Counted from the stretch's first letter, positions 8,750-47,702 are shown. The stretch: 64,000 nt of DNA from an uncultured Alphaproteobacteria bacterium (GCA_963721105.1 CAVRHY010000003.1:2509-66508), one strand, 5' to 3'. Numbers and translations are program-made. The notes: a model not told the origin generated them from the sequence alone.

Positions 8750-9048
8750 GGCAGGGGTCCATCCCGCCAATCCCGCCAAGTGGACCGATCGAGTAGGCTG
8801 GCGTGCCAAGCGTCCGCCCTTGCAGACGCCGACAGTCGGCTCCCCTTGACGGGCTCGACGACTTGCCGATGGCTCGCAGCCCGGACGCCCCGTCCGGCCT
8901 TCACCACCACCTATTCGTGACCTTCCCCCCTCGATCGAGCCCGCAAGAGCAGGCCATTGGGCCGGGTGCCGCTTCCCACTCCGGGGTTCCCACCCCCCGG
9001 CGCGCGCGCTATGAGGGCGCCCGACCATTCCCCGACGGATCCGAGACG

Positions 9049-11969: not shown

Positions 11970-12130
11970 GGGGGCGTCGGCTCTCGCGCGTTCCGCGCGA
12001 CGGCGAGCTTTGCGATCGGCGGACTTTGCGATCGGCGGGCTGACAACCCGCTCTTCAGGCGCGTCGCGAGGGTAGCGCGGCCTTTCGATCCGCCCTCCGC
12101 TCCACGCGGTTATCCGTTCGCCCCGCGCAG

Positions 12131-33721: not shown

Positions 33722-33822
33722 GGGACTGAGACCGGGCCGGGCGCGCGTGGCGCCCGGTCCATTGCCTGCCCGGGCGCGGTGCCGTCGCGACGGGTCGGGC
33801 CGGGGGTGACGGGAAGCGGCCG

Positions 33823-34836
33823 ATGGTCCAGTTCGCGAACTTCGTGCTGATGCGCGCGGCGATGGCGCTGTTCACGCTGTTCCTCGTCTCTCTCATCGTA
33901 TTCACGCTGATGGAGTTGGTGCCCGGCGACTGCGCCGAGCGCTACCTCGCCTTCAAGAACACGCAAGGGTCCGGCATCTCGGTCGCCGATATCCAGGCCG
34001 AGCGCGTCCGGCTGGGGCTGGACAAGCCGTTCCTCGAGCGCTGGGGAGGCTGGATCGGCAACGTCATGATCCATGGCGAGTTCGGCGAGAGCTGCATCTT
34101 GCGCGTCGACATCAACCAGCTTCTGGGCGACAAGTTCCTGATTTCTCTGGGCATCTGCCTGACGTCGCTGTTCCTGGCATATCTCATAGCCGTTCCTGTC
34201 GGGATGATCGCCGCCAGCGTGAAAAGTCCGACTCTCAACAATTCGCTGCGCTTCGTCAGTTACCTGGGGCTGGCTCTGCCGAACTTCCTGCTGGCACTGA
34301 TCATCATGCTCTGCTCGACGATTTGGTTCGGCGACAGCCTGACGGGGCTGTTCTCGGCGGCCTATCGCGACGCGCCGTGGTCATGGGCCAAGCTGGCCGA
34401 TTTCCTCAGCCGCGCCTGGTTGCCGGTGTTCATCCTCGGCTGGTCGGCGACCGCCTTCGCGCTGCAGACCGTCCGCGCGCTGATGTCGGACGAGATCGGC
34501 AAGCTCTACGTCACCGCCGCGGCGGCGCGCGGCATTTCGGGGCCGGCGCTGATCTGGCGCTATCCGGCGCGGCACGCGCTGGGGCCGGTCGTCAACTCGC
34601 TGGGCTTCGACCTCAACCGAATCTTCAACGAGCTGCCGATCGTCGCGCTGATCATGACGCTGACCGAGGCCGGCGCGCTGCTGATCGAGAGCCTCGCGCG
34701 GTCGAACGACCAGCAGTTGGCGGGTGCGATCATCTTCCTGCTGACCGCGTCCATCGTGACGCTGAACTTCCTGACCGACATCCTGCTGGCGCTGCTTGAC
34801 CCGCGCATCCGCAAGGGCGTGATGGGAACGGCGTGA
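33823..34836 (+). CDS. ABC transporter permease (OppB/DppB-like)
   Basis: ELVPGD, LGLDKPFLER, ALPNFLL and DILLALLDPRIR. Confidence 0.9.
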   Translation: MVQFANFVLMRAAMALFTLFLVSLIVFTLMELVPGDCAERYLAFKNTQGSGISVADIQAERVRLGLDKPFLERWGGWIGNVMIHGEFGESCILRVDINQLLGDKFLISLGICLTSLFLAYLIAVPVGMIAASVKSPTLNNSLRFVSYLGLALPNFLLALIIMLCSTIWFGDSLTGLFSAAYRDAPWSWAKLADFLSRAWLPVFILGWSATAFALQTVRALMSDEIGKLYVTAAAARGISGPALIWRYPARHALGPVVNSLGFDLNRIFNELPIVALIMTLTEAGALLIESLARSNDQQLAGAIIFLLTASIVTLNFLTDILLALLDPRIRKGVMGTA

Positions 34837-34912
34837 GGACGGAACACGCGATGCCGGGGGGCAGAACGGAACGGATGCGGAGCGGACGGGGACCTATGGG
34901 ACGGGGGATTGC

Positions 34913-36113
34913 ATGACCGAGGTTGCAGGCACGATCCCCGCCGCGACGGACGAGGTGCGCCGCAAGAAGGAGGCGTATTTCACAGCCTCGCAGTCGCAGC
35001 TGATCTGGGCGCGCTTCAAGCGCAACCGCTCGGCGATGATCGCGTTGGTGGCGCTGGTGACGATGGTCCTGATGGGGTTCTTCGCGCCGTTCCTGTCGCC
35101 CTACGACCCCACCGTCGCCGGGCGCGACCCGACCTACGAGAACGGCGCGCCGCAGATCCCGCGGTTCTGGGACGAGAACGGCTTCTCGTTCCGCCCCTTC
35201 GTCTACGGCACCGAACGCATGCGCTCGATCGAGACGAACTTTCGCTGGGTGACGACGATCAACCGCGCCGACCGGCGCTATATCCACTTCTTCGTCGACG
35301 GCTGGACCTACAGCATGATCGACAGCCGCATCGCGCTGCCGATCATCGAGGTCGACCTAAACCTGCGCGCGCTGACCTTCCACACCCACTTGTTCGGCGC
35401 GGACGAGGGGCAGGTCCATCTGTTCGGCACCGAGGCCTCGGGCAAGGACATCTTCAGCCGCACGCTGCACGCGATCTGGACCTCGCTGGCGGTCGGCACG
35501 ATCGGCGTCTTCCTGTCCTTCGTGCTGGCGTTGGTGATCGGCGGGGTGTCGGGCTATTTCGGCGGCTGGATTGACGGCATCATCCAGATGGTCACCGACG
35601 CCATCCGCACGGTGCCCGTGATTCCGCTGTTCATGGCGATCGCCGCCTTCATCCCGCAGACCTGGAGCTCGGAGACGCAGGTTCTTCTTCATCTCCTGCG
35701 TCATCGGGTTGCTGAACTGGCCGACGCTGGCCCGGCGAATACGCACGCACCTGCTGACCGAGCGCAGCCAGGAATACGTGCTGGCAGCGCAGCTTTCGGG
35801 CGCATCGTCAGCGCACATCATCCGCCGCCATCTGCTGCCCAGCTTCACCAGCTACATCATCGTCGACCTGATGATCTCGTTCCCCTACATGGTCCGCGCC
35901 GAAACGGCGCTCAGCTTCATCGGGCTGGGGCTGAAGGATCCGGTGAACTCGCTGGGATCGCTGCTGCAGAACGTGTCGAAGGCGGACGTGCTGCTGAACT
36001 ATCAGTGGTACATGATCCCGGTCTTCTTCTTCGTCGCGCTGGTGCTGGCCTTCGTCTATGTCGGCGACGGGCTGCGCGACGCCGCCGATCCCTACGCCAA
36101 GTCCGGAAAGTGA
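34913..36113 (+). CDS. ABC transporter permease (OppC/DppC-like); frameshift near 35680
   Basis: HLFGTEASGKDIFSR, EYVLAAQLSGAS, ETALSFIGLG and GDGLRDAADPY. Confidence 0.9.
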
Positions 36114-36117
36114 AGCC

Positions 36118-37119
36118 GTGAGCCTGCTCAAGGTCGAGAACCTGACGGTCCAGTTCAAGACCGACGAAGGCCGCATCGTCGCGGTCGACGACGTGTCCTT
36201 CGAGCTCGAGCCCGGCAAGGTGATGGGGCTGGTCGGCGAGTCCGGCTCGGGCAAGTCGGTGACGGCCAAGGCGCTGATGCAGCTGAACCCGGACAACACC
36301 GTCTATGCGCCGGGCAGCCGCATCACGCTGGAGCTCGACGGAGACCGCGTCGACGTGCTGAAGCTGCGCTCTAACCGCGAGCTGCGCGTCGTCCGCGGTG
36401 GCGCCGTCTCGATGATCTTCCAGGAGCCGATGGCCAGCTTCGCGCCCGCCATCACGATCGGCGACCAGATGGTCGAGCAGTTGGTGCTCCACAAGCGCGT
36501 TACCAAGCGCGAGGCGCGCGACCATTCGATCCACATGCTCGAGCGGGTAGGCATCTCGGACGCCCCGAAACGCTTCAACCAGTATGCGTTCGAGCTGTCG
36601 GGCGGCATGCGCCAGCGTGCGATGATCGCCATGGCGCTGTCGACGCAGCCGAAGCTGCTGATCGCCGACGAGCCCACGACGGCGCTGGACGTCACGATCC
36701 AGGCGCAGGTGATCGACCTGATGAAGGACCTCGTCGCCGAGTTTCACATGGGCATCATCTTCATCACGCACGACCTTGGCGTGATCGCCCAGACCGCCGA
36801 CACGGTCGCCGTCATGTATCTCGGCCGCATCGTCGAGCAGGGGCCGGTGCGCGACGTCATCCGCAACCCGGCGCACCCCTACACCAAGGGCCTGCTGCAC
36901 GCGCTACCGGATCTGGAGAACCTCGATGCGCCGCTGACGCCGGTGCCGGGCGACATCCCGAGCCCCCTGGAGCGCCCGCCCGGCTGCGTCTTCCACACCC
37001 GCTGCCCTGAGGTCATCCGCGGTCGCTGCAACGTCGCCGTGCCGCGAATGGCGATGCTGAAGCAAGGCCACACCGCCGCCTGCTTCGCTGTCGAGGACGC
37101 GCTGGTGCCCCAGGCATGA
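36118..37119 (+). CDS. ABC transporter ATP-binding protein (OppD-like)
   Basis: GESGSGKS, LSGGMRQR, ADEPTTALD and GCVFHTRC. Confidence 0.93.
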   Translation: MSLLKVENLTVQFKTDEGRIVAVDDVSFELEPGKVMGLVGESGSGKSVTAKALMQLNPDNTVYAPGSRITLELDGDRVDVLKLRSNRELRVVRGGAVSMIFQEPMASFAPAITIGDQMVEQLVLHKRVTKREARDHSIHMLERVGISDAPKRFNQYAFELSGGMRQRAMIAMALSTQPKLLIADEPTTALDVTIQAQVIDLMKDLVAEFHMGIIFITHDLGVIAQTADTVAVMYLGRIVEQGPVRDVIRNPAHPYTKGLLHALPDLENLDAPLTPVPGDIPSPLERPPGCVFHTRCPEVIRGRCNVAVPRMAMLKQGHTAACFAVEDALVPQA

Positions 37120-38126
37120 CCCAGAAACCCATCATGGCGGTCCGCGACCTTGCGGTGCATTTCCCGATCGGGGGCGGCCTGTTCGGCGCGAAATCGGTCG
37201 TGCAAGCGGTCGAGGGCGTGACCCTCGACATCCCGCGCGGCTCGTTCTTCGGGCTGGTCGGGGAATCCGGCTCGGGCAAGACGACGCTGGGCCGCGCCAT
37301 GCTGAAGGCGGCGCCGATCACGCGCGGCCACGTGAACTACGTGGACAGCGAGGTCGCCTACGACCTCGCCACGATCACCAGGGCCGAGCTCAAGGACTAT
37401 CGCAAGCGCGCACAGCTTATCTTCCAGGACCCCTACGCGGCGCTGAGCCCGCGCATGACCGTGCGCGACATCATCGCCGAGCCGCTGGAGGTGATGGGCA
37501 TCACGAAGGGCCGCGAGGCGACAGACCGCCGCGTTCGCGAGATCGCCGCCAAGTGCCGGCTGAACCTCGAACACCTGCGCCGCTTCCCGCACGCCTTCTC
37601 GGGTGGGCAGCGCCAGCGCATCTCGATCGCCCGGGCGCTGGTGGCCAGCCCCCGCTTCGTCGTCGCCGACGAATCGGTAGCGGCGCTGGACGTCTCGATC
37701 CAGGCCGACGTGCTGAACCTGCTGAAGGAGCTGAAGCGCGATCTCGGCCTGACCATCCTGTTCATCAGCCACGACCTCAGCGTCGTTGCGCACATCTGCG
37801 ACCACGTCGCGGTGATGTACCTGGGCCGGCTGGTCGAGACGGCGCCGACTCGCCAGCTCTTCGCAATGCCGCGGCACCCCTACACAAAGGCGCTTCTGTC
37901 GGCGATTCCGTCGCTGGACCCGGACGACCGCGGCAAGCTGCAAAAACTGGAAGGCGAGATCCCCAGCCCGACGAACCCGCCTCCGGGCTGCAAGTTCCAC
38001 ACGCGCTGCCCGCACGCCATCGACATATGCCGCACCGTCGAGCCCGAGTTGGAGATCGACGCCGGCGAGCGCGCCGTCTCCTGCCACCGCTGGCGCGAAC
38101 TGGCCGAGGCGGTCCCGGCGGAGTGA
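37116..38126 (+). CDS. ABC transporter ATP-binding protein (OppF-like)
   Basis: GESGSGKT, FSGGQRQR and GCKFHTRC. Confidence 0.93.
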   Translation: MTQKPIMAVRDLAVHFPIGGGLFGAKSVVQAVEGVTLDIPRGSFFGLVGESGSGKTTLGRAMLKAAPITRGHVNYVDSEVAYDLATITRAELKDYRKRAQLIFQDPYAALSPRMTVRDIIAEPLEVMGITKGREATDRRVREIAAKCRLNLEHLRRFPHAFSGGQRQRISIARALVASPRFVVADESVAALDVSIQADVLNLLKELKRDLGLTILFISHDLSVVAHICDHVAVMYLGRLVETAPTRQLFAMPRHPYTKALLSAIPSLDPDDRGKLQKLEGEIPSPTNPPPGCKFHTRCPHAIDICRTVEPELEIDAGERAVSCHRWRELAEAVPAE

Positions 38127-38201
38127 CGCGGCGCGGGCGGCACAGACGCCGTGGCTTCGCGGCCGATACACATTCTGGCCGAACCGGGCTATGACGCCGG
38201 G

Positions 38202-39446
38202 ATGCAGGTGGACAAGACATCCCCGGCTCGCGCGGCCGATGACGACCCGGTCCGCCGGCAATACGAGGCGCTGCCCTATCCGCAGCGCGACCCGGCCGAC
38301 GAGGCCCGGCGGCTGGTCGAGGGTTCGCCCTCGCACCCGGTCGAGATCGACCATTTCCTGTTCCGCGGCCGGCGCGACTGGACCCGGCCGTTCCGCGCGC
38401 TGGTCGGCGGCGGCGGCACGGGCGACGGGCTGGTCATGCTGGCGCAGAAGCTGGCCGATATCGGCTGCCCGGCCGAGCTGACCTATCTGGACCTCTCCGA
38501 GGCCAGCCGGGCGGTCGCCGAGGCGCGCATGGCCGCGCGCGGCCTGTCGGCCCGGTTCCTGACCGGCGACCTGCTGTCGGCGCCGGAGCTTGGGCCGTTC
38601 GACTACATCGACTGCTGCGGCGTGCTGCATCACCTGGCCGATCCCGACGCCGGGTTCCGCGCGCTGGCGCAGGCGCTTGGGCCACAGGGTGGCATCGGCC
38701 TGATGGTCTATGCCCCCTATGGCCGGACCGGCGTCTACCCGTTGCAGGCGGCCTTTGGTGCGCTCTTCGCCGGCGACGACCCGGCCGGGAAGGTGCGCCT
38801 CGCCCGGGCGGCGCTGGCCACGCTGCCGGCGGGCCACCCGTTCCTGAGGAACGAGGTGCTGGGCGACCACCGCGCCTCGGATGCCGGGCTGCACGATCTG
38901 CTCCTTCACGCCCGCGACCGGGCCTACACGGTCACCGAGCTCTGCGCCGCGCTGGACCGCGCCGGGCTGGATCTGGTCTCGTTCGTCGAGCCGGCGCGCT
39001 ACGACCCGCTGCGCTACCTGCCGGAAAGCGCGGATTTCGCCCGGCGCGCCGCTGCGCTGGACCCGGTGGCGCGCATGGGCGTGGCCGAGCAGCTGGCCGG
39101 CAACATCAAGACGCATGTCGCCTATGCCGTGCCCCATGGCCGGGGACCGGCCGAGGCGCGGCCGACCGCGCCCGAGCTGGTCCCGCACCTCGCCCGCATC
39201 GCCGCCGGGCCGCTGGCGCAACAGGTAAAGGCGAAGGGCGGCGTCACCGTCACCTGCGACGGCGCCCCGTTCCGCCTCGCGCTGCCGCGCGAGGCGGCGC
39301 CTCTCATTGCCCGCATCGATGGCCGCCGGACGCTGGGCCAGATCGCCGGCCGTGACTGGCTTGCCGCCGGCACGGCCTGGGCGCCCGTTCACCGGGCGCT
39401 GACGGGCTTCAACCTGATGCATTACTCGACCGGAGCGCGCCGGTGA
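38202..39446 (+). CDS. Class I SAM-dependent methyltransferase with C-terminal extension, substrate unknown
   Basis: QYEALPYP, LVGGGGTG (motif I), YLDLSEAS and FDYIDCCGVLHHLADP. Confidence 0.85.
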   Translation: MQVDKTSPARAADDDPVRRQYEALPYPQRDPADEARRLVEGSPSHPVEIDHFLFRGRRDWTRPFRALVGGGGTGDGLVMLAQKLADIGCPAELTYLDLSEASRAVAEARMAARGLSARFLTGDLLSAPELGPFDYIDCCGVLHHLADPDAGFRALAQALGPQGGIGLMVYAPYGRTGVYPLQAAFGALFAGDDPAGKVRLARAALATLPAGHPFLRNEVLGDHRASDAGLHDLLLHARDRAYTVTELCAALDRAGLDLVSFVEPARYDPLRYLPESADFARRAAALDPVARMGVAEQLAGNIKTHVAYAVPHGRGPAEARPTAPELVPHLARIAAGPLAQQVKAKGGVTVTCDGAPFRLALPREAAPLIARIDGRRTLGQIAGRDWLAAGTAWAPVHRALTGFNLMHYSTGARR

Positions 39447-40321
39447 TACTCGACCATGCCCCCTACACGCCGTTCATGGAGCCCCGCACAGCGCACCCGC
39501 CGGGGCTGGCGCCGCTCGACATGCGCGAGTGGACCGTGCGCCACGCCGATTTCGAGGGGCAGATGGCGGAGCGCCGACGACTGCTGGCCGAGCACCCGGA
39601 TACCGTCCTCGGCGCGCTCCACGAGGGCGAGGATCCCGGCGAGGAACTGCTGGAGATGCTGCTGGCCCATCTCGGCGACGCGCGGCCACTGACGCTGGAG
39701 GAGAAGTTCTGCCAGCTCACCGCCATCGGGCGGCTGGTCTGCGAGGATTTCTGCCTGCTGGTGCCGGATGACGCCTCCGGCGAGTACCGGCTGGCGGCGG
39801 CCGTGCTTTGCTTCCCCTCGCGCTGGCTGCTGTCGGAAAAGCTGGGCCGCCCGCTGACGCCCATCCACACGCCGGTGCCGGACTATGCCGGCGATCTCGC
39901 GCGCCGCGTCAACCGCGTCTTCGAGGCGCTGCGCCCCGAGCGCCCGCTGGTGCGCGTCAACTGGTCTGTCCACCCGACGCCCGAGCTGTTTCTGCCGCAG
40001 AGCGAGAGCGAGAAGATCGCGCCCTTCCGCCCCGGCGACGAGGCGCGGTTCTACCTGCGCACCGAGCGCCAGACGCTCGTCCGCCTGCCGCGCACGGGCG
40101 CGGTCGCTTTCGGCATCAAGACCTCGGTGACGCCCGTCGAGCGGCTGGCGCCGGCGGTGGCGCAGGGCCTCGCCGGGGCGCTGCGCGGGCTGGGCGACGG
40201 CATGGTCGGCTACAAGGGCGGCCGCGCCCGCGTCGATGCCGCCATCGCCCGGCTGGAGGCGCTGGCTTGCGCCGATGCCGGGCAGGATACACATCAACAG
40301 CGGGTTTCAGGAGGAGACTGA
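39443..40321 (+). CDS. DUF3445 / heme-dependent oxidative N-demethylase alpha-subunit-like protein
   Basis: PPGLAPLD, VCEDFCLL, AAVLCFPSRWLLSEKLGRPLTPIHTPVP, RVNWS and RTERQTLVRLPRTGAVAFGI; GTGA overlap with the methyltransferase. Confidence 0.85.
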   Translation: MILDHAPYTPFMEPRTAHPPGLAPLDMREWTVRHADFEGQMAERRRLLAEHPDTVLGALHEGEDPGEELLEMLLAHLGDARPLTLEEKFCQLTAIGRLVCEDFCLLVPDDASGEYRLAAAVLCFPSRWLLSEKLGRPLTPIHTPVPDYAGDLARRVNRVFEALRPERPLVRVNWSVHPTPELFLPQSESEKIAPFRPGDEARFYLRTERQTLVRLPRTGAVAFGIKTSVTPVERLAPAVAQGLAGALRGLGDGMVGYKGGRARVDAAIARLEALACADAGQDTHQQRVSGGD

Positions 40322-40323
40322 CC

Positions 40324-41493
40324 ATGTCCGTCGTCATCGTCGGCGCCGCGCGCACCCCCATGGGCGGCTTCCAGGGCGAACTGTCGCCCGCCACCGCGCC
40401 GGAACTCGGCGCGACCGCGATCAGATCCGCGCTCGACCGGGCCGGCGTCGCGGCCGAGTCCGTCGACGAGGTGCTGATGGGCTGCGTGCTGGCGGCCGGC
40501 CAGGGTCAGGCGCCGGCGCGGCAGGCGGCCTTCGGTGCCGGACTGCCCGACAGCGTGCCGTGCTCGACCGTCAACAAGATGTGCGGCTCCGGCATGAAGA
40601 CCGTGATGATGGGCATGGATTCGCTCCGCGCCGGCGAGGGGCGGATCGTGATCGCTGGCGGCATGGAGAGCATGACGAACGCCCCCTACATCGCGCCCAA
40701 GATGCGCGGGGGCGCGCGGCTTGGTCACGCGCAGATGCTCGACCACATGTTCCTCGACGGATTGGAGGACGCATACGACAAGGGCCGCCTGATGGGCACC
40801 TTCGCCGAGGACTGCGCCGAGCAGTACCAGTTTACGCGCGAGAGCCAGGACGAATACGCGCTGGCCTCGCTGGACGGCGCGCTGCGCGCGCAGTCTGAGG
40901 GCTGGTTCGACCGCGAGATCGCGCCCGTGACGGTGACGGGGCGCAAGGGTTCTGACGAGATTGCCACTGACGAGCAGCCGCGCAACGCCCGGCCCGACAA
41001 GATCCCGACGCTGAAGCCCGCCTTCCGCAAGGACGGTACGGTTACTGCGGCGAACTCGTCGTCGATCTCGGACGGCGCGGCCGCGCTGGTCCTGATGCGC
41101 GAGGCGGACGCGAACGGCCATGAGATTCGCGCCCGCATCGTCGCGCACGCCAGCCACGCGCAGAAGCCGTCGCTGTTCACCACCGCGCCGGTCGCCGCGA
41201 TCCGCAAGGTGCTGGACAAGGCCGGCTGGGAGATTTGCGACGTCGACCTCTGGGAGATCAACGAGGCGTTCGCCGTCGTCCCGATGGCGGCGATGCGCGA
41301 GCTCGGCATCCCGCGCGAGAAGCTGAACGTCAATGGCGGCGCCTGCGCGCTCGGCCACCCGATCGGCGCCTCGGGCGCGCGCATCATCGTGACTCTCCTG
41401 CACGAGATGGAGCGCCGTGGCGTGATGAAGGGCGTCGCCAGCCTGTGCATCGGCGGCGGCGAGGGCACGGCTGTCGCCATCGAGCGCCGCTGA
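40324..41493 (+). CDS. Acetyl-CoA C-acyltransferase (thiolase)
   Basis: ARTPMG, NKMCGSGM, EINEAF, GHPIGASGAR and CIGGGEG. Confidence 0.95.
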   Translation: MSVVIVGAARTPMGGFQGELSPATAPELGATAIRSALDRAGVAAESVDEVLMGCVLAAGQGQAPARQAAFGAGLPDSVPCSTVNKMCGSGMKTVMMGMDSLRAGEGRIVIAGGMESMTNAPYIAPKMRGGARLGHAQMLDHMFLDGLEDAYDKGRLMGTFAEDCAEQYQFTRESQDEYALASLDGALRAQSEGWFDREIAPVTVTGRKGSDEIATDEQPRNARPDKIPTLKPAFRKDGTVTAANSSSISDGAAALVLMREADANGHEIRARIVAHASHAQKPSLFTTAPVAAIRKVLDKAGWEICDVDLWEINEAFAVVPMAAMRELGIPREKLNVNGGACALGHPIGASGARIIVTLLHEMERRGVMKGVASLCIGGGEGTAVAIERR

Positions 41494-41495
41494 TC

Positions 41496-42155
41496 GTGGC
41501 GCTGCGCATCGCGGAGCGGCCGGACTGGGTCTACCTGCTGCGCGAGATCAAGGAACTCTACCGCCGTTCGGGCGCGGGCGGCAGCGCCAGGATCGGCGCG
41601 CACCAGAGGCAGGTGCGCGACACGGTCGGCCGGTTGATCGGGGCGAACCCGGCCCTACTCGAGCGGGTCACCGAGGACAAGCCGGTGACGACCCATTTGC
41701 GCCGCGCGCTGGACAATGGGCGGCAGGAATCGACCCAGTCCGTGCTGCGCGCGCTGGAGCCGGTATTGCCGGCGCTGAGTTGGCTCTTCGGCTACGAGAA
41801 GGTGCCACGCGGGCTGGCCTCGAAATACGCCTATGCCGAGATCGCAGGACCGCATGGGCCGGTCGAGAGCGCCGATATCATCCTGGGGCTGGTGCTGTTC
41901 GGTCCGAAATGCACCTATCCGGCGCATTCGCACCAAGGGTTGACCGAGAGCTACTACATTCTGTCGGGCGCCGTCAGCGAGAACGACGAGGGCGTCTATG
42001 CGCCCGGATCGCTGATCTTCAACCCGCCCGGCCGGATGCACCGGATCACGGTCAGCAACCGCGAGCCGGCGCTGCTCGCATATGCTTGGGCCGGCCCTCG
42101 CGATAAGCTGGCAGATCAGAAGATGGAATTCTCCCGCAAGAGGAAGACGGAATAG
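41496..42155 (+). CDS. dddL: DMSP lyase DddL-family cupin
   Basis: PDWVYLLRE...GAGGS, KPVTTHLRRALD, WLFGYEKVPRGLASKYAYAE, GLVLFGPKCTYPAHSHQGLTESY, SENDEGVYAPGSLIFN and HRIT...PALLAYAW are colinear with rhodobacteral DddL as I recall it; the cupin HxHx4ExY motif and distal His are intact. Confidence 0.85.
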   Translation: MALRIAERPDWVYLLREIKELYRRSGAGGSARIGAHQRQVRDTVGRLIGANPALLERVTEDKPVTTHLRRALDNGRQESTQSVLRALEPVLPALSWLFGYEKVPRGLASKYAYAEIAGPHGPVESADIILGLVLFGPKCTYPAHSHQGLTESYYILSGAVSENDEGVYAPGSLIFNPPGRMHRITVSNREPALLAYAWAGPRDKLADQKMEFSRKRKTE

Positions 42156-42318
42156 GGCACGCCAAGGACATGGTGGGCCAGCACGCCCCGGCCGAGAAGC
42201 TGAAGGCTATCTTCGGGCAGGAGGACGTCACCTTTGTCGACTTCCGGGACATGGTGCGCTACTCAGCGCGCTCGCGGCTGCGCCCGCGGCGCGCGCGAGA
42301 AGGCGGGCGCCATCGAGC
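42152..42318 (+). pseudogene. Decayed duplicate: rhodanese 5' part fused by deletion to an acyl-CoA dehydrogenase 5' fragment
   Basis: 42152-42250 aligns to 44032-44148 (start ATG changed to ATA, short internal deletion); 42243-42318 aligns to 44452-44532. Confidence 0.85.
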
Positions 42319-42319
42319 A

Positions 42320-42761
42320 GCCTTCCGCAAGGACGGCACGTTGACGGCAGCGAACTCGTCGTAGATCTCGGACGGCGCGTCCGCGCTGGTCCTGATGCGC
42401 GAGGCGGATGCGGACGGTCATGAGATTCGCGCCCGCATCGTCGCGCACGTCAGCTACGCGCAGAAACCGTCGGTGTTCGCCACGGCGCTGGTCGCCGCGG
42501 TCCGCAAGGTGCTGGACGAGGCCGGCTGAGAGATCGGCGATGATTTCGCCGTCGTTCCGATGGCGGCGATGCGCAAGCTTGGAATCCCGCGCGAAAAGCG
42601 GTAGGTCGATGTCGGCGCCTGCGCGCTCGGCCACCCGATCGGCGCCTCGGCCGCGTGCATCATCGTCACGCTCCTGCACGAGAGGGATCGCCGTGACGTT
42701 ACGAAGAGCGTCGCGAGCCTGTGCATCGGCGGCAGCGAGGACACGGTCGTGGCGATCGAGC
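42320..42761 (+). pseudogene. Decayed duplicate of the thiolase 3' region
   Basis: Aligns to 41020-41486 (GCCTTCCGCAAGGACGG...GCGATCGAGC) with premature stops (TCG>TAG at 42362, TGG>TGA near 42527) and small deletions. Confidence 0.9.
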
Positions 42762-42844
42762 AGATGTGGGGCCACAGGCTCTGTTGCTGTTGGTCCTGAA
42801 ACTCCCTACTGTTCAGCAGAGGTCATTGATTTTAGGGATTAGAA

Positions 42845-43805
42845 GTGGACAGCGGGACGGTTTTAAGCGTCGGGAATGCTGGAGCAGTCCTTGACAATCC
42901 ACAGGCACGGTCGGCCGAGCGAAACGGAAGTTTCGATGTCTTGCGCTTTGTCGGTGCGGTCGGCATCGTCTGGTTCCATACCGGCGCGCCCGGGTCGGAG
43001 TATGCCGGCGGGGCCATGTTGATGTTCGTTGCTTTGACGGTGTGCTTCGGCCTCCGGAACGCTTCACGGCTCTCGCCCGGCGGGCTGATCGCAATGCGTG
43101 CCCGTAGGCTGCTGGCGCCCTGGCTGGTCTGGTCGTTGATCTATGGGTTGTGGATTGGCCAGCACGCGGTCCGCTCCGGAATACCCCTGCTGGACGTCTT
43201 CGAACCCCGGATGATCCTGACCGGGACCGCACCTCACCTTTGGTTTCTTCCATTCGCCTTCGTCGCCACGGTGGTCGGGGGCGCCATTCTTCGCTTCATC
43301 CCCGACAAGGCGCCAGGCTTCGCTTTGACTGTCGGGGCCTACATCGTTGTCATGATAGCCGGCGCACTCGCCTTCGAAATGTTCAGCATCCCGAAGCCGT
43401 TCGCGACATGGCTGAGCGCCACTCCCGCCGTTCTGCTGGGTCTCGCACTGCTGCGCGCGGACGGCTCGAACTCTGGCTCTCGGCCTGATTCTGCTGGCCG
43501 TTGTGCTCGTCTGTGCCGGGCTGAGGGCAGCCGGCATGGTCTACGGCACGATCCCCTACACGGTTGCGGCCGTCCTGATGGTGGCCGGAGCCGCGTTCCC
43601 CACCCCGCCGCGCGAGTGGAAGCACGTGCTCTCGCGGCTGTCCGTGGGTGTCTATCTTCTGCACCCGATCATCACAGGTCTCATCCTGTTCCGGATCCCC
43701 GCACTTCCGGACGGGACGCCGGAGAAGGCCCTGTTCGCGATCATCCTCTCCGCCCTGACGGCTGCGGCCTTCTGGCGAACGCCGATTCTGCGGCGGATCG
43801 TTTAG
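42845..43805 (+). CDS. OafA/YrhL (acyltransferase-3) family membrane acyltransferase; frameshift near 43480
   Basis: FDVLRFVGAVGIVWFH, RARRLLAPWLVWS, HLWFLPFAF and SVGVYLLHPII; many TM segments; sampled lines are 57-58% GC, below the flanks. Confidence 0.82.
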
Positions 43806-43851
43806 CGCCTGTCGGCACCGGGCGCTGCCAGGAGGCTGCGTGCAACGGGTG

Positions 43852-44035
43852 GGTCAGCGATAGCGAGCAGGGCGTCGATGCGCCCGGATCGCCGATCATC
43901 AACCCGCCGTAACCGATGCACAGGATCACGGCCAGCAACCGCGAGCCGGCGCCGCCGGCCTATGCTTGGGCGGGCCAGCGCGATAAGCTGGCCAATCAGA
44001 AGGTGGAATTCTCCCGCACGAGGAAGACGGAATGA
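43852..44035 (+). pseudogene. Decayed duplicate of the dddL 3' end
   Basis: GTCAGCGA...GGCGTCGATGCGCCCGGATCG...GGAATTCTCCCGCACGAGGAAGACGGAATGA aligns to 41973-42155, with a TAA at 43910 interrupting it; weaker similarity may extend back to ~43806. Confidence 0.88.
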
Positions 44036-44427
44036 AGCACGTCAAGGACATGGTGGCCGAGGCCAACCGGACCGTCGAACATGCCCCGGCCGAAAAGCTG
44101 AAGGCGATGCACGGGCAGGAGGGCGTCACCTTTGTCGACCTCCGCGACGTTCGCGAGCTGGAGCGCGACGGCATGATCGAGGGCGCCTTCCACTGCCCGC
44201 GCGGGATGCTGGAATTCTGGATCGACCCGGAAAGCCCTTACGCCAAGCCGCAGTTCCAGTCGGGCGACAGGTTTATCTTCTACTGCGCCAGCGGCTGGCG
44301 CTCGGCGCTGTCGGCCAAGGCGGCGCAGGACATGGGCCTGCCGAACGTCAGCCACATCGAGGACGGCTTCAGCGGCTGGAAGAAGGCCGGCGGACCGGTG
44401 GCGGAGCGGCAGAAAAAGGACGCCTGA
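44032..44427 (+). CDS. Single-domain rhodanese/sulfurtransferase-like protein
   Basis: VDLRDVREL, GAFHCPRGMLEFWIDP, YCASGWRSALS active-site loop and GFSGWK. Confidence 0.9.
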   Translation: MKHVKDMVAEANRTVEHAPAEKLKAMHGQEGVTFVDLRDVRELERDGMIEGAFHCPRGMLEFWIDPESPYAKPQFQSGDRFIFYCASGWRSALSAKAAQDMGLPNVSHIEDGFSGWKKAGGPVAERQKKDA

Positions 44428-45554
44428 TGCTCACCGACGAGCAGTTAATGATCCGGGACATGGCGCGCGACTACGCGCGCTCGCGGCTGGCGCCCACGGC
44501 GCGCGCGCGCGAGAAGGCGGGTGCCATCGAGCCCGAGATCGTCGGCGAGCTGGGCGAACTCGGCTTCCTCGGCATGACCATCGACCCGGACTGGGGCGGG
44601 GCGGGCGCGGACTATACCAGCTACGCGCTGGCGCTGATGGAGATCGCCGCGGGCGACGGGTCGGTCTCGACGATGGTCTCGGTGCACAACGCGCCGGTCT
44701 GCGCGGTGTTGGACAGGTTCGCCAGCGACGAGCAGAAGGCGCGCTGGCTGACGCCGCTGGCGTCGGGCGAGCGCATCGGGTCGTTCGCCCTGACCGAGGC
44801 TCAGGCGGGATCGGACGCGGCCAACCTGAAGAGCCGTGCCGTCCGCTCGAACGAGGGCTACACGGTCAACGGCACAAAGCAGTTCATCTCGTCGGCGCGC
44901 ATCGGCAGGACCACCGTCCTGTTCGCGATGACGGACCCTGAGAAGGGCAAGAAGGGGATGTCCTGCTTCGTCGTCGACAACGCGACGCCGGGGTTCTCGG
45001 TCGTGCGTGTCGAGGAGAAACTGGGGCAGAAGGCCAGCGACAGCTGCGCGCTGGCCTTCGAGGACATGAAGGTGCCCTTCGAGGATCGCATCGGCGAGGA
45101 GGGGCAGGGCTATTCCATCGCGCTCTCGTCGCTGGAATCGGGCCGCATCGGCATCGCGGCGCAGGCGACCGGGCTGGCGCAGGCGGCCTATGAGCGGGCG
45201 CTCGACTACGCAAAGGAGCGAACAGCCTTCGGCGAGCCGATCTTCCAGCTCCAGGCCGTCCAGTTCCGGCTGGCCGAGATGGCGACGGACCTGGAGGCCG
45301 CGCGCGCGCTGGTGTTGAACGCCGCCGCGATGAAGGACCGCGGCGATCCCTGCCTGAAGGAGGCGTGCATGGCCAAGCTGTTCTGCGCGCAGGCGGCCGA
45401 ACGCATCACCTCCGAGGCGATCCAGGTGCTGGGCGGCTATGGCTACCTGGCCGACTACGAGGTGGAGCGGATGTACCGCGATCAGAAGGTCTGCCAGATC
45501 TATGAGGGCACCAACGACATCCAGAAACTGATCATCGCGCGGCAGATCAAATGA
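44427..45554 (+). CDS. Acyl-CoA dehydrogenase (short/branched-chain type)
   Basis: FALTEAQAGSDA, NGTKQFIS, GRIGIAAQ, QVLGGYGY and IYEGTNDIQ; TGATG overlap with the rhodanese. Confidence 0.94.
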   Translation: MLTDEQLMIRDMARDYARSRLAPTARAREKAGAIEPEIVGELGELGFLGMTIDPDWGGAGADYTSYALALMEIAAGDGSVSTMVSVHNAPVCAVLDRFASDEQKARWLTPLASGERIGSFALTEAQAGSDAANLKSRAVRSNEGYTVNGTKQFISSARIGRTTVLFAMTDPEKGKKGMSCFVVDNATPGFSVVRVEEKLGQKASDSCALAFEDMKVPFEDRIGEEGQGYSIALSSLESGRIGIAAQATGLAQAAYERALDYAKERTAFGEPIFQLQAVQFRLAEMATDLEAARALVLNAAAMKDRGDPCLKEACMAKLFCAQAAERITSEAIQVLGGYGYLADYEVERMYRDQKVCQIYEGTNDIQKLIIARQIK

Positions 45555-46655
45555 AAGTCACCATCGTCGGCGGTGGGATCGTCGGGCTGTCGACGGCCTA
45601 CTGGCTGACGAAGGCCGGCATCGGCGTGACGGTGATCGAGCAGGGGCCGATCCCGAATCCGGTGGCGGCCTCGGCCGATCATCACCGGATGATCCGCTTC
45701 GCCTATGGCGACCGCGCCGGCTATGCCGCGCGGGTACCGCAGGCGTTCGCCGCCTGGCGCGCCGTCTGGGCCGACCTGCCGCGACCCGAGGGGCATTACT
45801 ATGTCGAGACCGGCGTGCTGAGCGTCTCGACAGAGCAGGGCGACGGCGCCGATCTCTCGCGCAAGCACACTGGAGGCGCTCGGCCTCGCTTACGAGTGGC
45901 TGGAGGGCGGGGCGCTGGCGAAGCGCCTGCCGTTCCTGGAGCCCGACGGCGTGCGATACGCGCTGCTGACCAAGGGCGGGGCGCTGATGGCGAACCGCAT
46001 CCTGGTGGACTTGGCCGACTGGCTGCGCCGCAACGGCGCCTCGGTGCTGGAGCACGCGCCGGTGACCTCGGTCGACCCGGCCGCCGGCAAGGTGACGCTG
46101 GCCGACGGGCGCACGATCGCCTCGGACACAGTCGTCGTCGCGGCCGGGATCGAGACGGCGCGGCTGATGCCTGACCTGGCGGTGCCGCTGGAGCCGCGGC
46201 GCTCGGTGGTGGTCTATGCCGACCCGCCTGCCGAGCTGATCGCCGCCTATGCCGGCGCGCCCTGCTGGACTCAGCTTGGTGGCGGCAGCGATCTCTGGGG
46301 CCTGGCCTCGGTCGAGGGGCTGCCGATGAAGCTGGGCAACGGCGCGCTGGGCCGGCCGGGCGACCCGGACGCGCCGGACGGACGGCGCATGGCGGCCGAC
46401 GAGGTCGTGACGGTGCTGGACGCCTATCGCGGCCGTTTTCGCGGCATCGACCGGTTCCACGTCCGCTGGCACCAGGCGAACTGGTGGACGCTGGCGCCGG
46501 AGGCGCGCTTCCTACTGTGCCGGCAGGACCGGGCAGTGATCGTCTCGGCCTGCTCGGCCCACGGCTTCAAGTTCGGCGCGCTCAGCGGGCGCGACGTCGC
46601 CGGGGCGCTGACCGGGGCACAGTTCGAGGCGGTGGCCGAGCGGATGGCGGGGTAG
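45551..46655 (+). CDS. FAD-dependent oxidoreductase, monomeric sarcosine oxidase (SolA)-like; frameshift near 45865
   Basis: GGGIVG Rossmann motif, ASADHHRMIRFAYG and SACSAHGFKFG; ATGA overlap with the acyl-CoA dehydrogenase. Confidence 0.85.
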
Positions 46656-46879
46656 GGGGCCGACCGACCCCGGCGGGTCGCCGTTGGCGGCGGGACGGTA
46701 CGCGACCAAGTCTCCCGCATGAGACCACGATCAAACGAATAAGTAAAAATAGAAATACAAAGGTTGAAACCTGGTGAATGGTCGGCGGCCGCTGTTAACG
46801 CGCAGAATGACGCTGCTGGCGTGCGCGCCTGCCGAGCGGCCGGCTCCTGGGCGGGGAGGTGAAACCGCGCCAGTGGGCG

Positions 46880-47702
46880 TCAGCTAAGCCAGCGCTTGCG
46901 ACGGCGATATGAGCGGACGTCGCGGAAGGACTTGCGGCCGCTCTCGGACATGCCGAGGTAGAATTCCTTGACGTCGGAGTTCTCGCGCAGCTTGTCGGCT
47001 GGGCCGTCCATCACCACGCGACCTGACTCCAGGATGTAGCCGTAATGCGCGAAGCGGAGCGCGATGTTCGTGTTCTGCTCGGCAAGCAGAAAGGTCACCC
47101 CCTGCTCCTCGTTCAGTCGCTTGACGATGTCGAAGATCTGCTCGACGAGTTGCGGCGCCAGGCCCATGGAGGGCTCGTCCAGCAGGATCGTCTCGGGCTT
47201 GCTCATCAGGGCGCGTCCGATAGCGCACATCTGCTGCTCGCCGCCCGAGGTATAGCCCGCCTGCGAGCGTGCGCCGCTCCTTCAGCCGGGGGAAATAGGT
47301 GTAGACCATGTCGAGGTCCTTGCGGACCTCGGCGCCGCCGTCCTTGCGGGTGAAGGCGCCGGTCAGGAGGTTTTCTTCGATGGTCAGGTGCTCGAAGCAG
47401 TGACGCCCCTCCATCACCTGGATGACGCCCCGCGCCACCAGCGCCGAGGGGTTCAGCTCGGCGATCAACTCGCCGCGATATCGGATGGTGCCCTTGGTGA
47501 CCTCGCCGCGCTCGGATTGCAGCAGGTTCGAGATCGCCTTGAGCGTCGTCGTCTTGCCGGCGCCGTTGCCACCCAGCAGCGCGGTGATGCCTCCCTTGGG
47601 CACGCCCAGGCTGACGCCTTTCAGCACCAGGATGACGGAGTTGTAGATGACCTCGACATTGCTGACTTCCAGCAGCGTTTCGGCATTCTGCGTGTCGAGC
47701 AT
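46880..47702 (-). CDS. LivF-type ABC ATP-binding protein; frameshift near 47265
   Basis: GGNGAGKTT, LLDEPSMGLAP and C-terminal SYRRRKRWLS. Confidence 0.9.

What the first reader, a model, noticed from the sequence alone, without database searches (positions are those of the whole stretch)
38202..46655. DMSP lyase DddL inside a translationally coupled methyl-onium/acyl-CoA operon lacking acuI/acuR: candidate undescribed catabolic system
Seen: seven same-strand genes with overlapping or near-abutting junctions. The order is SAM methyltransferase (GTGA overlap) DUF3445 (2 nt) thiolase (2 nt) dddL, then rhodanese (TGATG) acyl-CoA dehydrogenase (ATGA) SolA-like flavoprotein. The ancestral dddL/rhodanese ATGA overlap is preserved in the duplicate at 44032. 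Known: DddL cleaves DMSP to DMS + acrylate and in Rhodobacter sphaeroides lies in acuR-acuI-dddL, where AcuI removes toxic acryloyl-CoA. DUF3445 and SolA-family enzymes include N-demethylases. Inference: here the acyl-CoA dehydrogenase and thiolase may stand in for AcuI in handling the C3 product, and the rhodanese may handle sulfur. The two demethylase-like genes raise the possibility that the substrate is a DMSP analogue such as an N-methylated beta-alanine or betaine. I do not recall this gene set being described, but could not search for it.
Basis: partly seen in the sequence, partly recalled or inferred. Interest (0 to 1): 0.78.

Follow-up and report, generated by a model that had tools for sequence, protein, structure and literature searches.

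The report
dddL lodged in acyl-CoA oxidation operon
A genuine DMSP-lyase gene (dddL) sits among fatty-acid-type breakdown genes in this marine alphaproteobacterium. Relatives show it was inserted once into an older operon, so the cluster is a patchwork inherited by descent rather than a new DMSP pathway.

Summary
Two things were missed. The run is broken by 1.9 kb of dead gene fragments plus a frame-broken acyltransferase (42156-44031). The last gene (DAO) is also frameshifted.

The cupin is a true DddL-family protein. It is 60% identical, without gaps, to the Sulfitobacter pontiacus-cluster DddL, and all metal and Tyr residues are present.

The gene order recurs in about 20 loci from several Paracoccaceae genera, so the cluster is conserved and, as far as I could search, undescribed. 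It is a mosaic of three parts:

- **MT-DUF3445.** Across 200 genera of the family this pair is normally the divergent neighbour of dddP, and it often lies far from dddL.
- **Thiolase, rhodanese, ACAD and an SDR.** These form an older short/branched-chain acyl-CoA module. It occurs without dddL, as thiolase-rhodanese-SDR, or as thiolase-ACAD-SDR next to branched-chain keto-acid dehydrogenase genes or an acyl-CoA synthetase.
- **dddL.** It entered that module once; the ACAD clade "with dddL" has 97% branch support.

A good acuI orthologue lies elsewhere in the genome, which is the published norm for dddL strains. Nothing shows that ACAD/thiolase replace AcuI or that rhodanese serves DMSP.

Other first-reader notes on this same window cover the fossil duplication and the acyltransferase. 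None reports this cluster on other DNA.

The parts
38202..39446 (+). Class I SAM-dependent methyltransferase (414 aa) with a C-terminal extension. Substrate unknown.
   Evidence: Pfam Methyltransf_12/25/11. Full-length match to PDB 8HKR, the M. tuberculosis Rv2067c methyltransferase, E=3e-29. Found in 47 of 200 sampled genera, next to DUF3445 in 19 and within 4 kb of dddP in 16.
39443..40321 (+). DUF3445 / HODM alpha-subunit-like protein (292 aa). GTGA overlap with the methyltransferase.
   Evidence: PF11927 199 bits. PDB 5LTE E=5e-13. Single copy in 133 of 200 sampled genera and within 6 kb of dddP in 83 of the 96 that have both.
40324..41493 (+). Acetyl-CoA C-acetyl/acyltransferase (thiolase, 389 aa).
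   Evidence: Thiolase_N/C. NF005404 625 bits, cut-off 687. Orthologues lie next to ACAD, rhodanese and SDR with or without dddL.
41496..42155 (+). dddL, a cupin DMSP lyase (219 aa, GTG start, TAG stop). Intact.
   Evidence: PF16867 134 bits. 60% identity over 209 aa without gaps to P0361 of the Sulfitobacter pontiacus cluster. H144, H146, E151 and Y153 are invariant and H182 is at least 90% conserved in 38 homologues. It is the only PF16867 hit in the genome.
42158..42318 (+). Remnants of a rhodanese 5' end (42158-42253, start lost) and an ACAD 5' end (42243-42318).
   Evidence: Direct repeats D3, D4, D6 and D9 at 83-97% identity to 44032-44532. tblastn. ATA in place of ATG.
42314..42763 (+). 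Thiolase 3' remnant (aa 231-388, 75% identity) with 3 in-frame stops and an 8-aa deletion.
42845..43912 (+). Acyltransferase-3 family membrane-protein ORF. Only the first ~200 aa are in frame with the family; the C-terminal part lies in another frame (43503-43805).
   Evidence: Pfam Acyl_transf_3, residues 28-202 only. ORF list.
43841..44031 (+). dddL 3' remnant (aa 156-219, 70% identity, one in-frame stop). Its stop overlaps the rhodanese start (ATGA).
44032..44427 (+). Single-domain rhodanese (131 aa) with the active-site loop CASGWR.
   Evidence: PF00581. PDB 2HHG, R. palustris RPA3614, E=5e-44. Orthologues at 70-77% identity sit in thiolase-rhodanese-SDR blocks that lack dddL.
44427..45554 (+). 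Short/branched-chain type acyl-CoA dehydrogenase (375 aa). The catalytic-base motif YEGT is present.
   Evidence: Acyl-CoA_dh_N/M/1. Best PDB matches are unnamed ACADs, then SCAD, butyryl-CoA DH and SBCAD. NCBIfam AcrC 412 bits, below the 640 cut-off.
45551..46655 (+). Sarcosine-oxidase/MTOX-like FAD oxidase in two frames (45551-~45865 and ~45870-46655). Either a pseudogene or an assembly indel.
   Evidence: DAO Pfam on both halves. tblastn against the intact L006 orthologue shows the frame change. The intact orthologue matches monomeric sarcosine oxidase 7EXS at E=3.5e-24.

Best explanation
The locus is an inherited mosaic of three unrelated modules on one strand, not a dedicated DMSP or methyl-onium pathway.

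**Module 1: MT-DUF3445.** In this bacterial family this two-gene unit normally lies divergently next to the DMSP lyase gene dddP. Its function is unknown.

**Module 2: thiolase, rhodanese, ACAD (plus an SDR in relatives).** This is an older short/branched-chain acyl-CoA oxidation module. In dddL-less genomes it is fed by a branched-chain keto-acid dehydrogenase or an acyl-CoA synthetase, so 2-methylbutyryl- or butyryl-CoA-type substrates are the likely ones (inferred).

**Module 3: dddL.** It was inserted once between thiolase and rhodanese in an ancestor of a Paracoccaceae sub-clade and has been passed on since. It most likely cleaves DMSP to DMS plus acrylate (inferred from family membership).

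Acrylate is probably handled by the unlinked acuI, which lies near an SDR and a propionyl-CoA carboxylase beta-subunit gene.

In this genome a tandem duplication of thiolase-dddL-rhodanese-ACAD later decayed reciprocally and left 1.9 kb of debris in the middle.

The tight junctions suggest co-transcription of dddL with its neighbours, but this has not been shown. Shared expression does not imply a shared pathway.
For: **DddL membership.**

**Synteny.**
- MT-DUF3445-THL-dddL-RHD-ACAD is found in L004, L005, L006/L063, L032, L033 and L061, and in L012, which is cut short after dddL.
- THL-dddL-(RHD)-ACAD(-SDR) is found in L010/L035, L017, L022 and L036-L039.

**Single insertion.**
- In the ACAD tree the 17 'with dddL' rows form one side of a branch (97*). 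They are nested among thiolase-ACAD pairs that lack dddL.
- All cluster-linked DddLs fall in one clade (99/97*).

**Pre-existing module without dddL.**
- L040 and L041: Lrp | THL-ACAD-SDR-BCKDH E1alpha ... E3.
- L042 and L044: AraC | acyl-CoA synthetase-SDR-THL-ACAD.
- G110 has THL-RHD-SDR, G070 has THL-RHD and G100 has RHD-SDR.

**MT-DUF3445 is independent of dddL.** In G003, G062 and G119 the MT-DUF3445 pair lies on a different contig from the dddL block; in G156 both genes do too, but on two separate contigs. DUF3445 is within 6 kb of dddP in 83 of 96 genera.

**Unrelated genes are tolerated between the members.** YceI, DoxX, GST and a reverse-strand methyltransferase occur there.

**Any partner can be lost.** Thiolase is missing in L002 and L007; rhodanese is missing in L036 and L038.

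**acuI is elsewhere.**. This fits PMC3338564.
Against: - Linkage of dddL to thiolase and ACAD has persisted in every sampled member of the clade. That includes 5 of 5 members found through ACAD alone, across DddL divergence down to 63% identity.
- In compact versions such as L063 all junctions overlap or abut, which could reflect selection for co-expression.
- In the Limibaculum-like subgroup dddP and dddL lie within 4 kb, which looks like a DMSP island.
- No BCKDH E1alpha orthologue was found in this genome (best hit 29% identity, genome 88.7% complete). The module's feed here is therefore unknown.
- No expression or enzyme data exist.
Confidence: 0.62

Rival explanations
1. The block is an integrated catabolic operon for DMSP or a longer sulfonium/onium acid. 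DddL releases DMS. The ACAD, the thiolase (with an SDR in relatives) and the rhodanese process the acyl-CoA and sulfur products. MT, DUF3445 and the sarcosine-oxidase-like enzyme act on methyl groups.
For: - dddL is retained inside the block in all 17 clade members, and the junctions are translationally coupled.
- dddP lies next to the block in L061, L063, L004, L012 and L032.
- A homologous DAO lies divergently beside dddL in Roseibium (L023, L025), a different DddL clade.
- The DUF3445/MT link to dddP across 83 of 96 genera suggests some DMSP-related role for that pair.
Against: - Each neighbour module exists without dddL.
- The block has no CoA ligase or transferase and no enoyl-CoA hydratase to make or hydrate acryloyl-CoA.
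- The ACAD keeps the ordinary SCAD/SBCAD signature and scores below every specific NCBIfam cut-off.
- acuI is present elsewhere.
- Unrelated genes are inserted between members, and members are lost singly.
- Outside this family, 8 of 10 genomes with a full-length dddP orthologue have no DUF3445, and in the other 2 it is far away. DddP therefore does not need it.
Confidence: 0.2
2. In this particular genome the locus is decaying and no longer works as one unit. The fossil duplication, the frame-broken acyltransferase and the frameshifted DAO interrupt it, and only some genes (dddL, thiolase, rhodanese, ACAD) may still be used.
For: - The remnants carry stops and deletions.
- DAO is split, and so is the genome's dddP on C5.
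- The dddP that precedes MT in relatives is replaced here by a Dpp-type ABC transporter.
Against: - All six core genes are full length and align end to end with orthologues.
- valS, an essential gene, is also split. The single-base frameshifts may therefore be assembly errors, not decay.
- No terminator-like site above background was found in the debris.
Confidence: 0.15

Closest known systems
[quoted passage not shown]
   Same: dddL is the promoter-distal or internal gene of a multigene operon. The lyase family is the same.
   Different: There is no acuR or acuI in the locus; acuI is on another contig. The neighbours are a thiolase, a rhodanese and an ACAD. According to PMC3338564 the R. sphaeroides linkage is the exception among dddL strains.
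DddL of Sulfitobacter sp. EE-36 / S. pontiacus (EE36_11918 is the ratified enzyme; P0361 belongs to the S. pontiacus cluster)
   Same: 60% identity over 209 aa without gaps, the same length class, and the same cupin motifs HxHx4Ex6G and Gx5PxGx2H (motifs as given in PMC4437653).
   Different: It belongs to the sister clade of the DddL tree. In Sulfitobacter none of these neighbours is present (L029). That accession EAP83768.1 is the EE-36 protein rests on my memory and was not verified.
Branched-chain (isoleucine-type) acyl-CoA oxidation operons linked to bkd genes
   Same: Orthologous thiolase, ACAD and SDR lie in one operon with an Lrp-type regulator and BCKDH E1alpha/E3 in L040 and L041. 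The ACAD is of SCAD/SBCAD type.
   Different: In the window the SDR has moved next to acuI. No BCKDH E1alpha orthologue was found. A rhodanese and dddL are embedded.
dddU-acu cluster of Amylibacter cionae H-12 (PMC11497337)
   Same: A cupin DMSP lyase is embedded among acyl-CoA enzymes.
   Different: That cluster has a CoA-transferase, an enoyl-CoA hydratase, a CoA ligase, a LysR regulator and an ABC transporter, and it is DMSP-induced. Here there is no ligase, transferase, hydratase or regulator. DddU is under 15% identical to DddL.
Haem-dependent oxidative N-demethylase (HODM) of Pseudomonas mendocina, alpha subunit (PDB 5LTE)
   Same: The DUF3445 protein shares the PF11927 domain.
   Different: The match covers only the C-terminal ~170 aa at E=5e-13. 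No reductase, ferredoxin or folate-binding partner genes are adjacent. The conserved neighbours are dddP and a methyltransferase.

Membership tests
DddL (cupin DMSP lyase, PF16867) | Family HMM match above the curated cut-off | tested here: met
   PF16867 scores 133.9 bits against a cut-off of 27. PF16867 also covers DddQ-like proteins (PDB 4B29 is the best solved match), so this alone does not separate DddL from DddQ.
DddL (cupin DMSP lyase, PF16867) | Close full-length similarity to an experimentally ratified DddL | tested here: met
   60% identity over 209 aa with no gaps to P0361 of the Sulfitobacter pontiacus cluster. Two ratified DddLs share only 50% with each other (10.1101/161257). That P0361 is the EE-36 protein is not verified.
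DddL (cupin DMSP lyase, PF16867) | Cupin metal ligands (3 His + Glu) and the motif-1 Tyr | tested here: met
   H144, H146, E151 and Y153 are invariant and H182 is at least 90% conserved in 38 homologues. The motifs are as described in PMC4437653.
DddL (cupin DMSP lyase, PF16867) | DMSP-dependent DMS and acrylate release | not testable with these tools
   Needs expression and an assay.
acu-ddd operon (R. sphaeroides type) | acuI (YhdH-family acryloyl-CoA reductase) co-transcribed with dddL | tested here: not met
   The only TIGR02823 hit above the cut-off is at C12:22062-23036; the window is on C3.
acu-ddd operon (R. sphaeroides type) | TetR-type acuR at the head of the operon | tested here: not met
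   No regulator lies among the ORFs 38202-46655. Upstream are Dpp-type ABC transporter genes, read from the ORF translations only.
HODM (haem-dependent oxidative N-demethylase) system | Alpha-subunit domain PF11927 | tested here: met
   199 bits. PDB 5LTE E=5e-13.
HODM (haem-dependent oxidative N-demethylase) system | Adjacent partner subunits (reductase, ferredoxin-like, folate-binding) | tested here: not met
   The neighbours are a methyltransferase and a thiolase here, and dddP in relatives.
Short/branched-chain acyl-CoA beta-oxidation module | Orthologous thiolase + ACAD + 3-hydroxyacyl-CoA-type SDR in one operon, independent of dddL | tested here: met
   Met in relatives: L040-L042, L044, L045, L051 and G110. 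In the window the SDR orthologue is unlinked, at C12:23712-24473.
Monomeric sarcosine oxidase / MTOX family | Intact FAD oxidase of about 370-390 aa | tested here: not met
   The window copy is in two frames. The intact orthologue in L063 matches 7EXS at E=3.5e-24 and MTOX 2UZZ at 3e-15. NCBIfam NF008425 scores 71 bits against a cut-off of 257.

The most novel reading that the evidence does not exclude
In Limibaculum-like Paracoccaceae, dddP, the methyltransferase, the HODM-like haem protein, dddL and sometimes a sarcosine-oxidase-like oxidase would form a real DMSP/onium-compound island. The DUF3445 protein and the methyltransferase, which are dddP's conserved neighbours in most Rhodobacteraceae genera, would carry out a still unknown methyl-group or oxidative step on DMSP, DMS or an analogue. 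The thiolase-rhodanese-ACAD module would have been co-opted for the resulting acyl-CoA.
Probability: 0.12. Interest if true: 0.75.

Novelty: new member of a known kind. Interest (0 to 1): 0.33.

Why it matters
DddL is one of the enzymes that release the climate-active gas DMS, and its genomic context was reported as not conserved. This work shows a clade in which the context is conserved and explains it: one insertion into an older acyl-CoA operon. That guards against reading a new acrylate or onium pathway from gene order alone.

A by-product may be more useful to DMSP researchers. The unstudied DUF3445 haem-PAS-like gene, and often a methyltransferase, is the divergent neighbour of dddP in most sampled Rhodobacteraceae genera. 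This gives a concrete, testable candidate for an accessory or regulatory function around dddP, whose regulators are still unknown (PMC12992908).

Tried and rejected
- **Public sequencing runs** for 38202-46655: none was listed, and no RNA holder was listed. Co-transcription could not be examined.
- **Promoter/terminator scan** of 37500-47500: 0 promoter-like sites, and 4 terminator-like sites against 3.4 expected. Uninformative.
- **Upstream Dpp-type ABC transporter** as part of the cluster: rejected. It is not conserved with the cluster; an orthologous transporter appears only in G077, about 4 kb from a 56%-identical ACAD.
- **DddU instead of DddL**: rejected. DddU is under 15% identical to DddL, whereas this protein is 60% identical to a Sulfitobacter DddL.
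- **ACAD as 3-sulfinopropionyl-CoA desulfinase, AcrC or a DmdC analogue**: all the specific NCBIfam models score far below their cut-offs, and the YEGT catalytic-base motif is ordinary.
- **dddP-DUF3445 link as universal**: rejected. Outside the family, 8 of 10 dddP genomes lack PF11927 and 2 have it far away.
- **Literature searches** for dddL+thiolase+rhodanese, DUF3445, dddP neighbours and HODM found no description of this cluster or of the dddP-DUF3445 pair.
- **A Pfam call on the remnants** failed because of stops. I replaced it with tblastn.
- **Complex prediction, structure prediction and fold search** were not used, because no claim here depends on them.

Full report
**1. What is in the sequence**

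The window has about 69% G+C. On the plus strand, Pfam assigns these genes:
- 38202-39446: a class I SAM methyltransferase.
- 39443-40321: an HODM_asu-like/DUF3445 protein.
- 40324-41493: a thiolase.
- 41496-42155: a DMSP_lyase (PF16867) cupin.
- 44032-44427: a rhodanese.
- 44427-45554: an acyl-CoA dehydrogenase (ACAD).
- 45551-46655: a DAO-family oxidase.

Two things were left out.

First, 42156-44031 is not intergenic filler. It contains diverged copies (81-97% DNA identity) of the following:
- a rhodanese 5' end, with its start mutated to ATA;
- an ACAD 5' end;
- a thiolase 3' end with three in-frame stops and an 8-aa deletion;
- an Acyl_transf_3 ORF that matches its family only over the first ~200 residues;
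- a dddL 3' end with one in-frame stop.

This is the fossil of a tandem duplication of thiolase-dddL-rhodanese-ACAD followed by reciprocal decay. Other first-reader notes on this window had noticed it.

Second, the DAO gene changes frame near 45860-45875 when compared with the intact 370-aa orthologue in L006/L063.

valS in the same window is split into several ORFs, and the genome's dddP-like gene is also in two frames. Single-base assembly errors are therefore a serious alternative to pseudogenisation.

**2. Is the cupin a DddL?**

Yes, as far as sequence can show.
- It has more than 1000 homologues at E <= 0.001. The best listed ones are 63-76% identical, come mostly from Paracoccaceae-like MAGs and isolates, and are named dimethylpropiothetin dethiomethylase or DMSP lyase family protein by their sources.
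- It is 60% identical, without a gap, over 209 residues to P0361 of the Sulfitobacter pontiacus cluster, named DddL by its sources. Two ratified DddLs, from R. sphaeroides and Sulfitobacter EE-36, share only 50% (10.1101/161257).
- H144, H146, E151 and Y153 are invariant and H182 is nearly so in 38 family members. These fit the cupin motifs described for DddL, DddQ and DddW (PMC4437653).
- It is not DddU, which is under 15% identical to DddL (PMC11497337).
- It is the only PF16867 gene in the 4.7-Mb, 88.7%-complete genome.

**3. Is the gene order conserved?**

Yes, within one clade. From 33 dddL loci in species-representative genomes, plus loci fetched through the ACAD and through identical proteins:
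- MT-DUF3445-thiolase-dddL-rhodanese-ACAD occurs in Limibaculum, Thermohalobaculum and related MAGs (L004, L005, L006/L063, L032, L033, L061, and L012, which is cut short after dddL). DAO follows only in L006/L063 and in the window.
- Thiolase-dddL-(rhodanese)-ACAD-SDR occurs in Rhodovulum sp. DZ06, Monaibacterium marinum and four unnamed genera (L017, L022, L036-L039). L010/L035 has thiolase-dddL-rhodanese-ACAD; no SDR orthologue was detected there.
- L002 and L007 lack the thiolase. L036 and L038 lack the rhodanese.
- More distant DddLs (Sulfitobacter, Roseobacter, Roseibium, Cohaesibacter, Devosiaceae and others) share none of these neighbours.

In the DddL tree all cluster-linked proteins form one clade (99/97*). 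A nested group, Geminicoccaceae and others, left the cluster.

**4. Where did the neighbours come from?**

*Thiolase and ACAD.* In the 200-genus sample of the family, the ACAD orthologue was found in 17 genera (18 including the window's own genome).
- Those 67-88% identical to the window's ACAD all carry dddL between thiolase and ACAD.
- Those 51-62% identical mostly have thiolase directly next to ACAD, with no dddL.
- In the ACAD tree the 17 'with dddL' sequences are one side of a branch (97*), nested among the dddL-less pairs. This indicates a single insertion.

The dddL-less operons are informative.
- L040 and L041, the sister group, read Lrp | thiolase-ACAD-SDR-BCKDH E1alpha ... lipoamide dehydrogenase.
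- L042 and L044 read AraC | acyl-CoA synthetase-SDR-thiolase-ACAD.
- The ACAD's nearest solved relatives are short-chain, butyryl- and short/branched-chain dehydrogenases.

This is an ordinary short/branched-chain acyl-CoA oxidation module.

*Rhodanese.* Orthologues occur in 92 of the 200 sampled genera. The closest ones outside the dddL clade (70-77% identical) lie in thiolase-rhodanese-SDR (G110), thiolase-rhodanese (G070) and rhodanese-SDR (G100) blocks. None of these has dddL. The rhodanese therefore belongs to the acyl-CoA module, not to dddL.

*MT and DUF3445.*
- DUF3445 homologues occur in 133 of 200 genera, and the methyltransferase in 47.
- The M24 gene that lies divergently upstream of MT in L061 and L063 is DddP: 620 and 571 bits, full length, to PDB 4RZY, and a match to 4B28. 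That 4RZY and 4B28 are the Ruegeria lacuscaerulensis and Roseobacter denitrificans DddP structures is from my knowledge of those entries.
- DddP occurs in 126 of the 200 genera.
- By coordinates, DUF3445 lies within 6 kb of dddP in 83 of the 96 genera that have both. The methyltransferase lies next to DUF3445 in 19 genera and within 4 kb of dddP in 16, in either order.
- In G003, G062 and G119 the MT-DUF3445 pair lies on a different contig from the thiolase-dddL block; in G156 both genes do too, but on two separate contigs.

So MT-DUF3445 is a dddP-linked unit that became juxtaposed to the thiolase-dddL block only in the Limibaculum-like subgroup. In the window itself dddP is not upstream; a Dpp-type ABC transporter is.

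The dddP-DUF3445 link is confined to this family. Of ten genomes from other alphaproteobacterial families with full-length DddP orthologues, eight have no PF11927 gene and two have it far away.

**5. acuI**

A YhdH/AcuI orthologue (TIGR02823, 456 bits against a cut-off of 297) lies at C12:22062-23036. Two genes upstream of the orthologue of the module's SDR, and near a propionyl-CoA carboxylase beta-subunit gene.

Todd et al. reported that all dddL strains have acuI somewhere, but that it is linked to dddL only in R. sphaeroides (PMC3338564). 'Lacking acuI/acuR' is therefore the rule and calls for no substitute.

**6. Most likely working**

Shown:
- dddL is intact and is a family member.
- It is embedded, by one ancestral insertion, in a pre-existing acyl-CoA module.
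- The junctions are compact.

Inferred:
- DddL cleaves DMSP to DMS and acrylate.
- Acrylate goes through a CoA ligase and AcuI to propionyl-CoA.
- Thiolase, ACAD, SDR and rhodanese keep their ancestral role on short or branched acyl-CoAs.
- dddL is co-transcribed with them without sharing a pathway.

I give this 0.62.

The integrated-pathway reading (0.20) is kept alive by three observations. Linkage has been retained without exception in the clade. dddP and dddL lie close together in the subgroup. A homologous DAO sits beside dddL in Roseibium. Against it stand the independent existence of every module, the lack of a CoA-activating enzyme or a hydratase in the block, the unrelated genes found between members (YceI, DoxX, GST), and the single losses of members.

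A third reading (0.15) is that the locus is decaying in this genome.

**7. Novelty and score**

The enzyme is a new member of a known family. The conserved context is, to my searches, undescribed, but it is best explained as inheritance of one insertion.

The dddP-DUF3445(-MT) synteny is a lead worth a bench test. It is, however, family-restricted, and kin are not independent.

Interest 0.33.

Noticed in passing
Relatives: e.g. L061:5159-8772, L063:2250-5801; G163 C19:43133-45374: dddP and a DUF3445/HODM-like gene are divergent neighbours in 83 of the 96 sampled Rhodobacteraceae-family genera that have both. A Rv2067c-like methyltransferase often joins them, in either order. I found no paper that mentions this. 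Outside the family the link is absent.
   Followed up: partly
G110 C10 (L081:7923-10256); G070 C3 (L082:5107-6660); G100 C1 (L083:8384-9539): A single-domain rhodanese (2HHG/RPA3614-like) is embedded in thiolase-rhodanese-SDR acyl-CoA operons that lack dddL. The role of a sulfurtransferase in such a module is unexplained.
   Followed up: partly
own genome C5:35394-36675 (L068:8395-9676, minus strand): The genome's dddP orthologue (59-66% identical to the Limibaculum DddP) is split between two frames. It is followed by a 493-aa DAO-family gene. It is not next to MT-DUF3445, unlike in most relatives.
   Followed up: partly
window 8803-12000: valS appears broken into several ORFs (8803-10536, 10760-11725, 10989-11969). 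For an essential gene this points to indel errors in the assembly and weakens every 'pseudogene' call in this window.
   Followed up: partly
own genome C12:22062-24473 (L067:8063-10477): acuI is followed by an RsmD-like gene and by the orthologue (60% identity) of the SDR that follows the ACAD in relatives' dddL blocks. A propionyl-CoA carboxylase beta-subunit gene lies just upstream on the other strand.
   Followed up: partly
L010 / L035 (WNWL01000002.1, G003): A record titled Oceanobacillus sp. HTM 045 (Bacillaceae) carries the alphaproteobacterial thiolase-dddL-rhodanese-ACAD block, with an ACAD 88% identical to the window's. G003 also falls in the window's family. The record is probably mislabelled or contaminated.
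   Followed up: no
L023:8690-9760 and L025:8730-9776 (minus strand): In two Roseibium MAGs a DAO/sarcosine-oxidase-like gene, 38-52% identical to the window's DAO, lies divergently next to dddL, which belongs to a different DddL clade. This may be chance or a second independent association.
   Followed up: no
window 31670-38126: A complete Opp/Dpp-type ABC transporter (binding protein, two permeases, two ATPases; read from the ORF translations, no family search run) ends 76 bp before the methyltransferase on the same strand. It occupies the place where relatives have dddP.
   Followed up: partly
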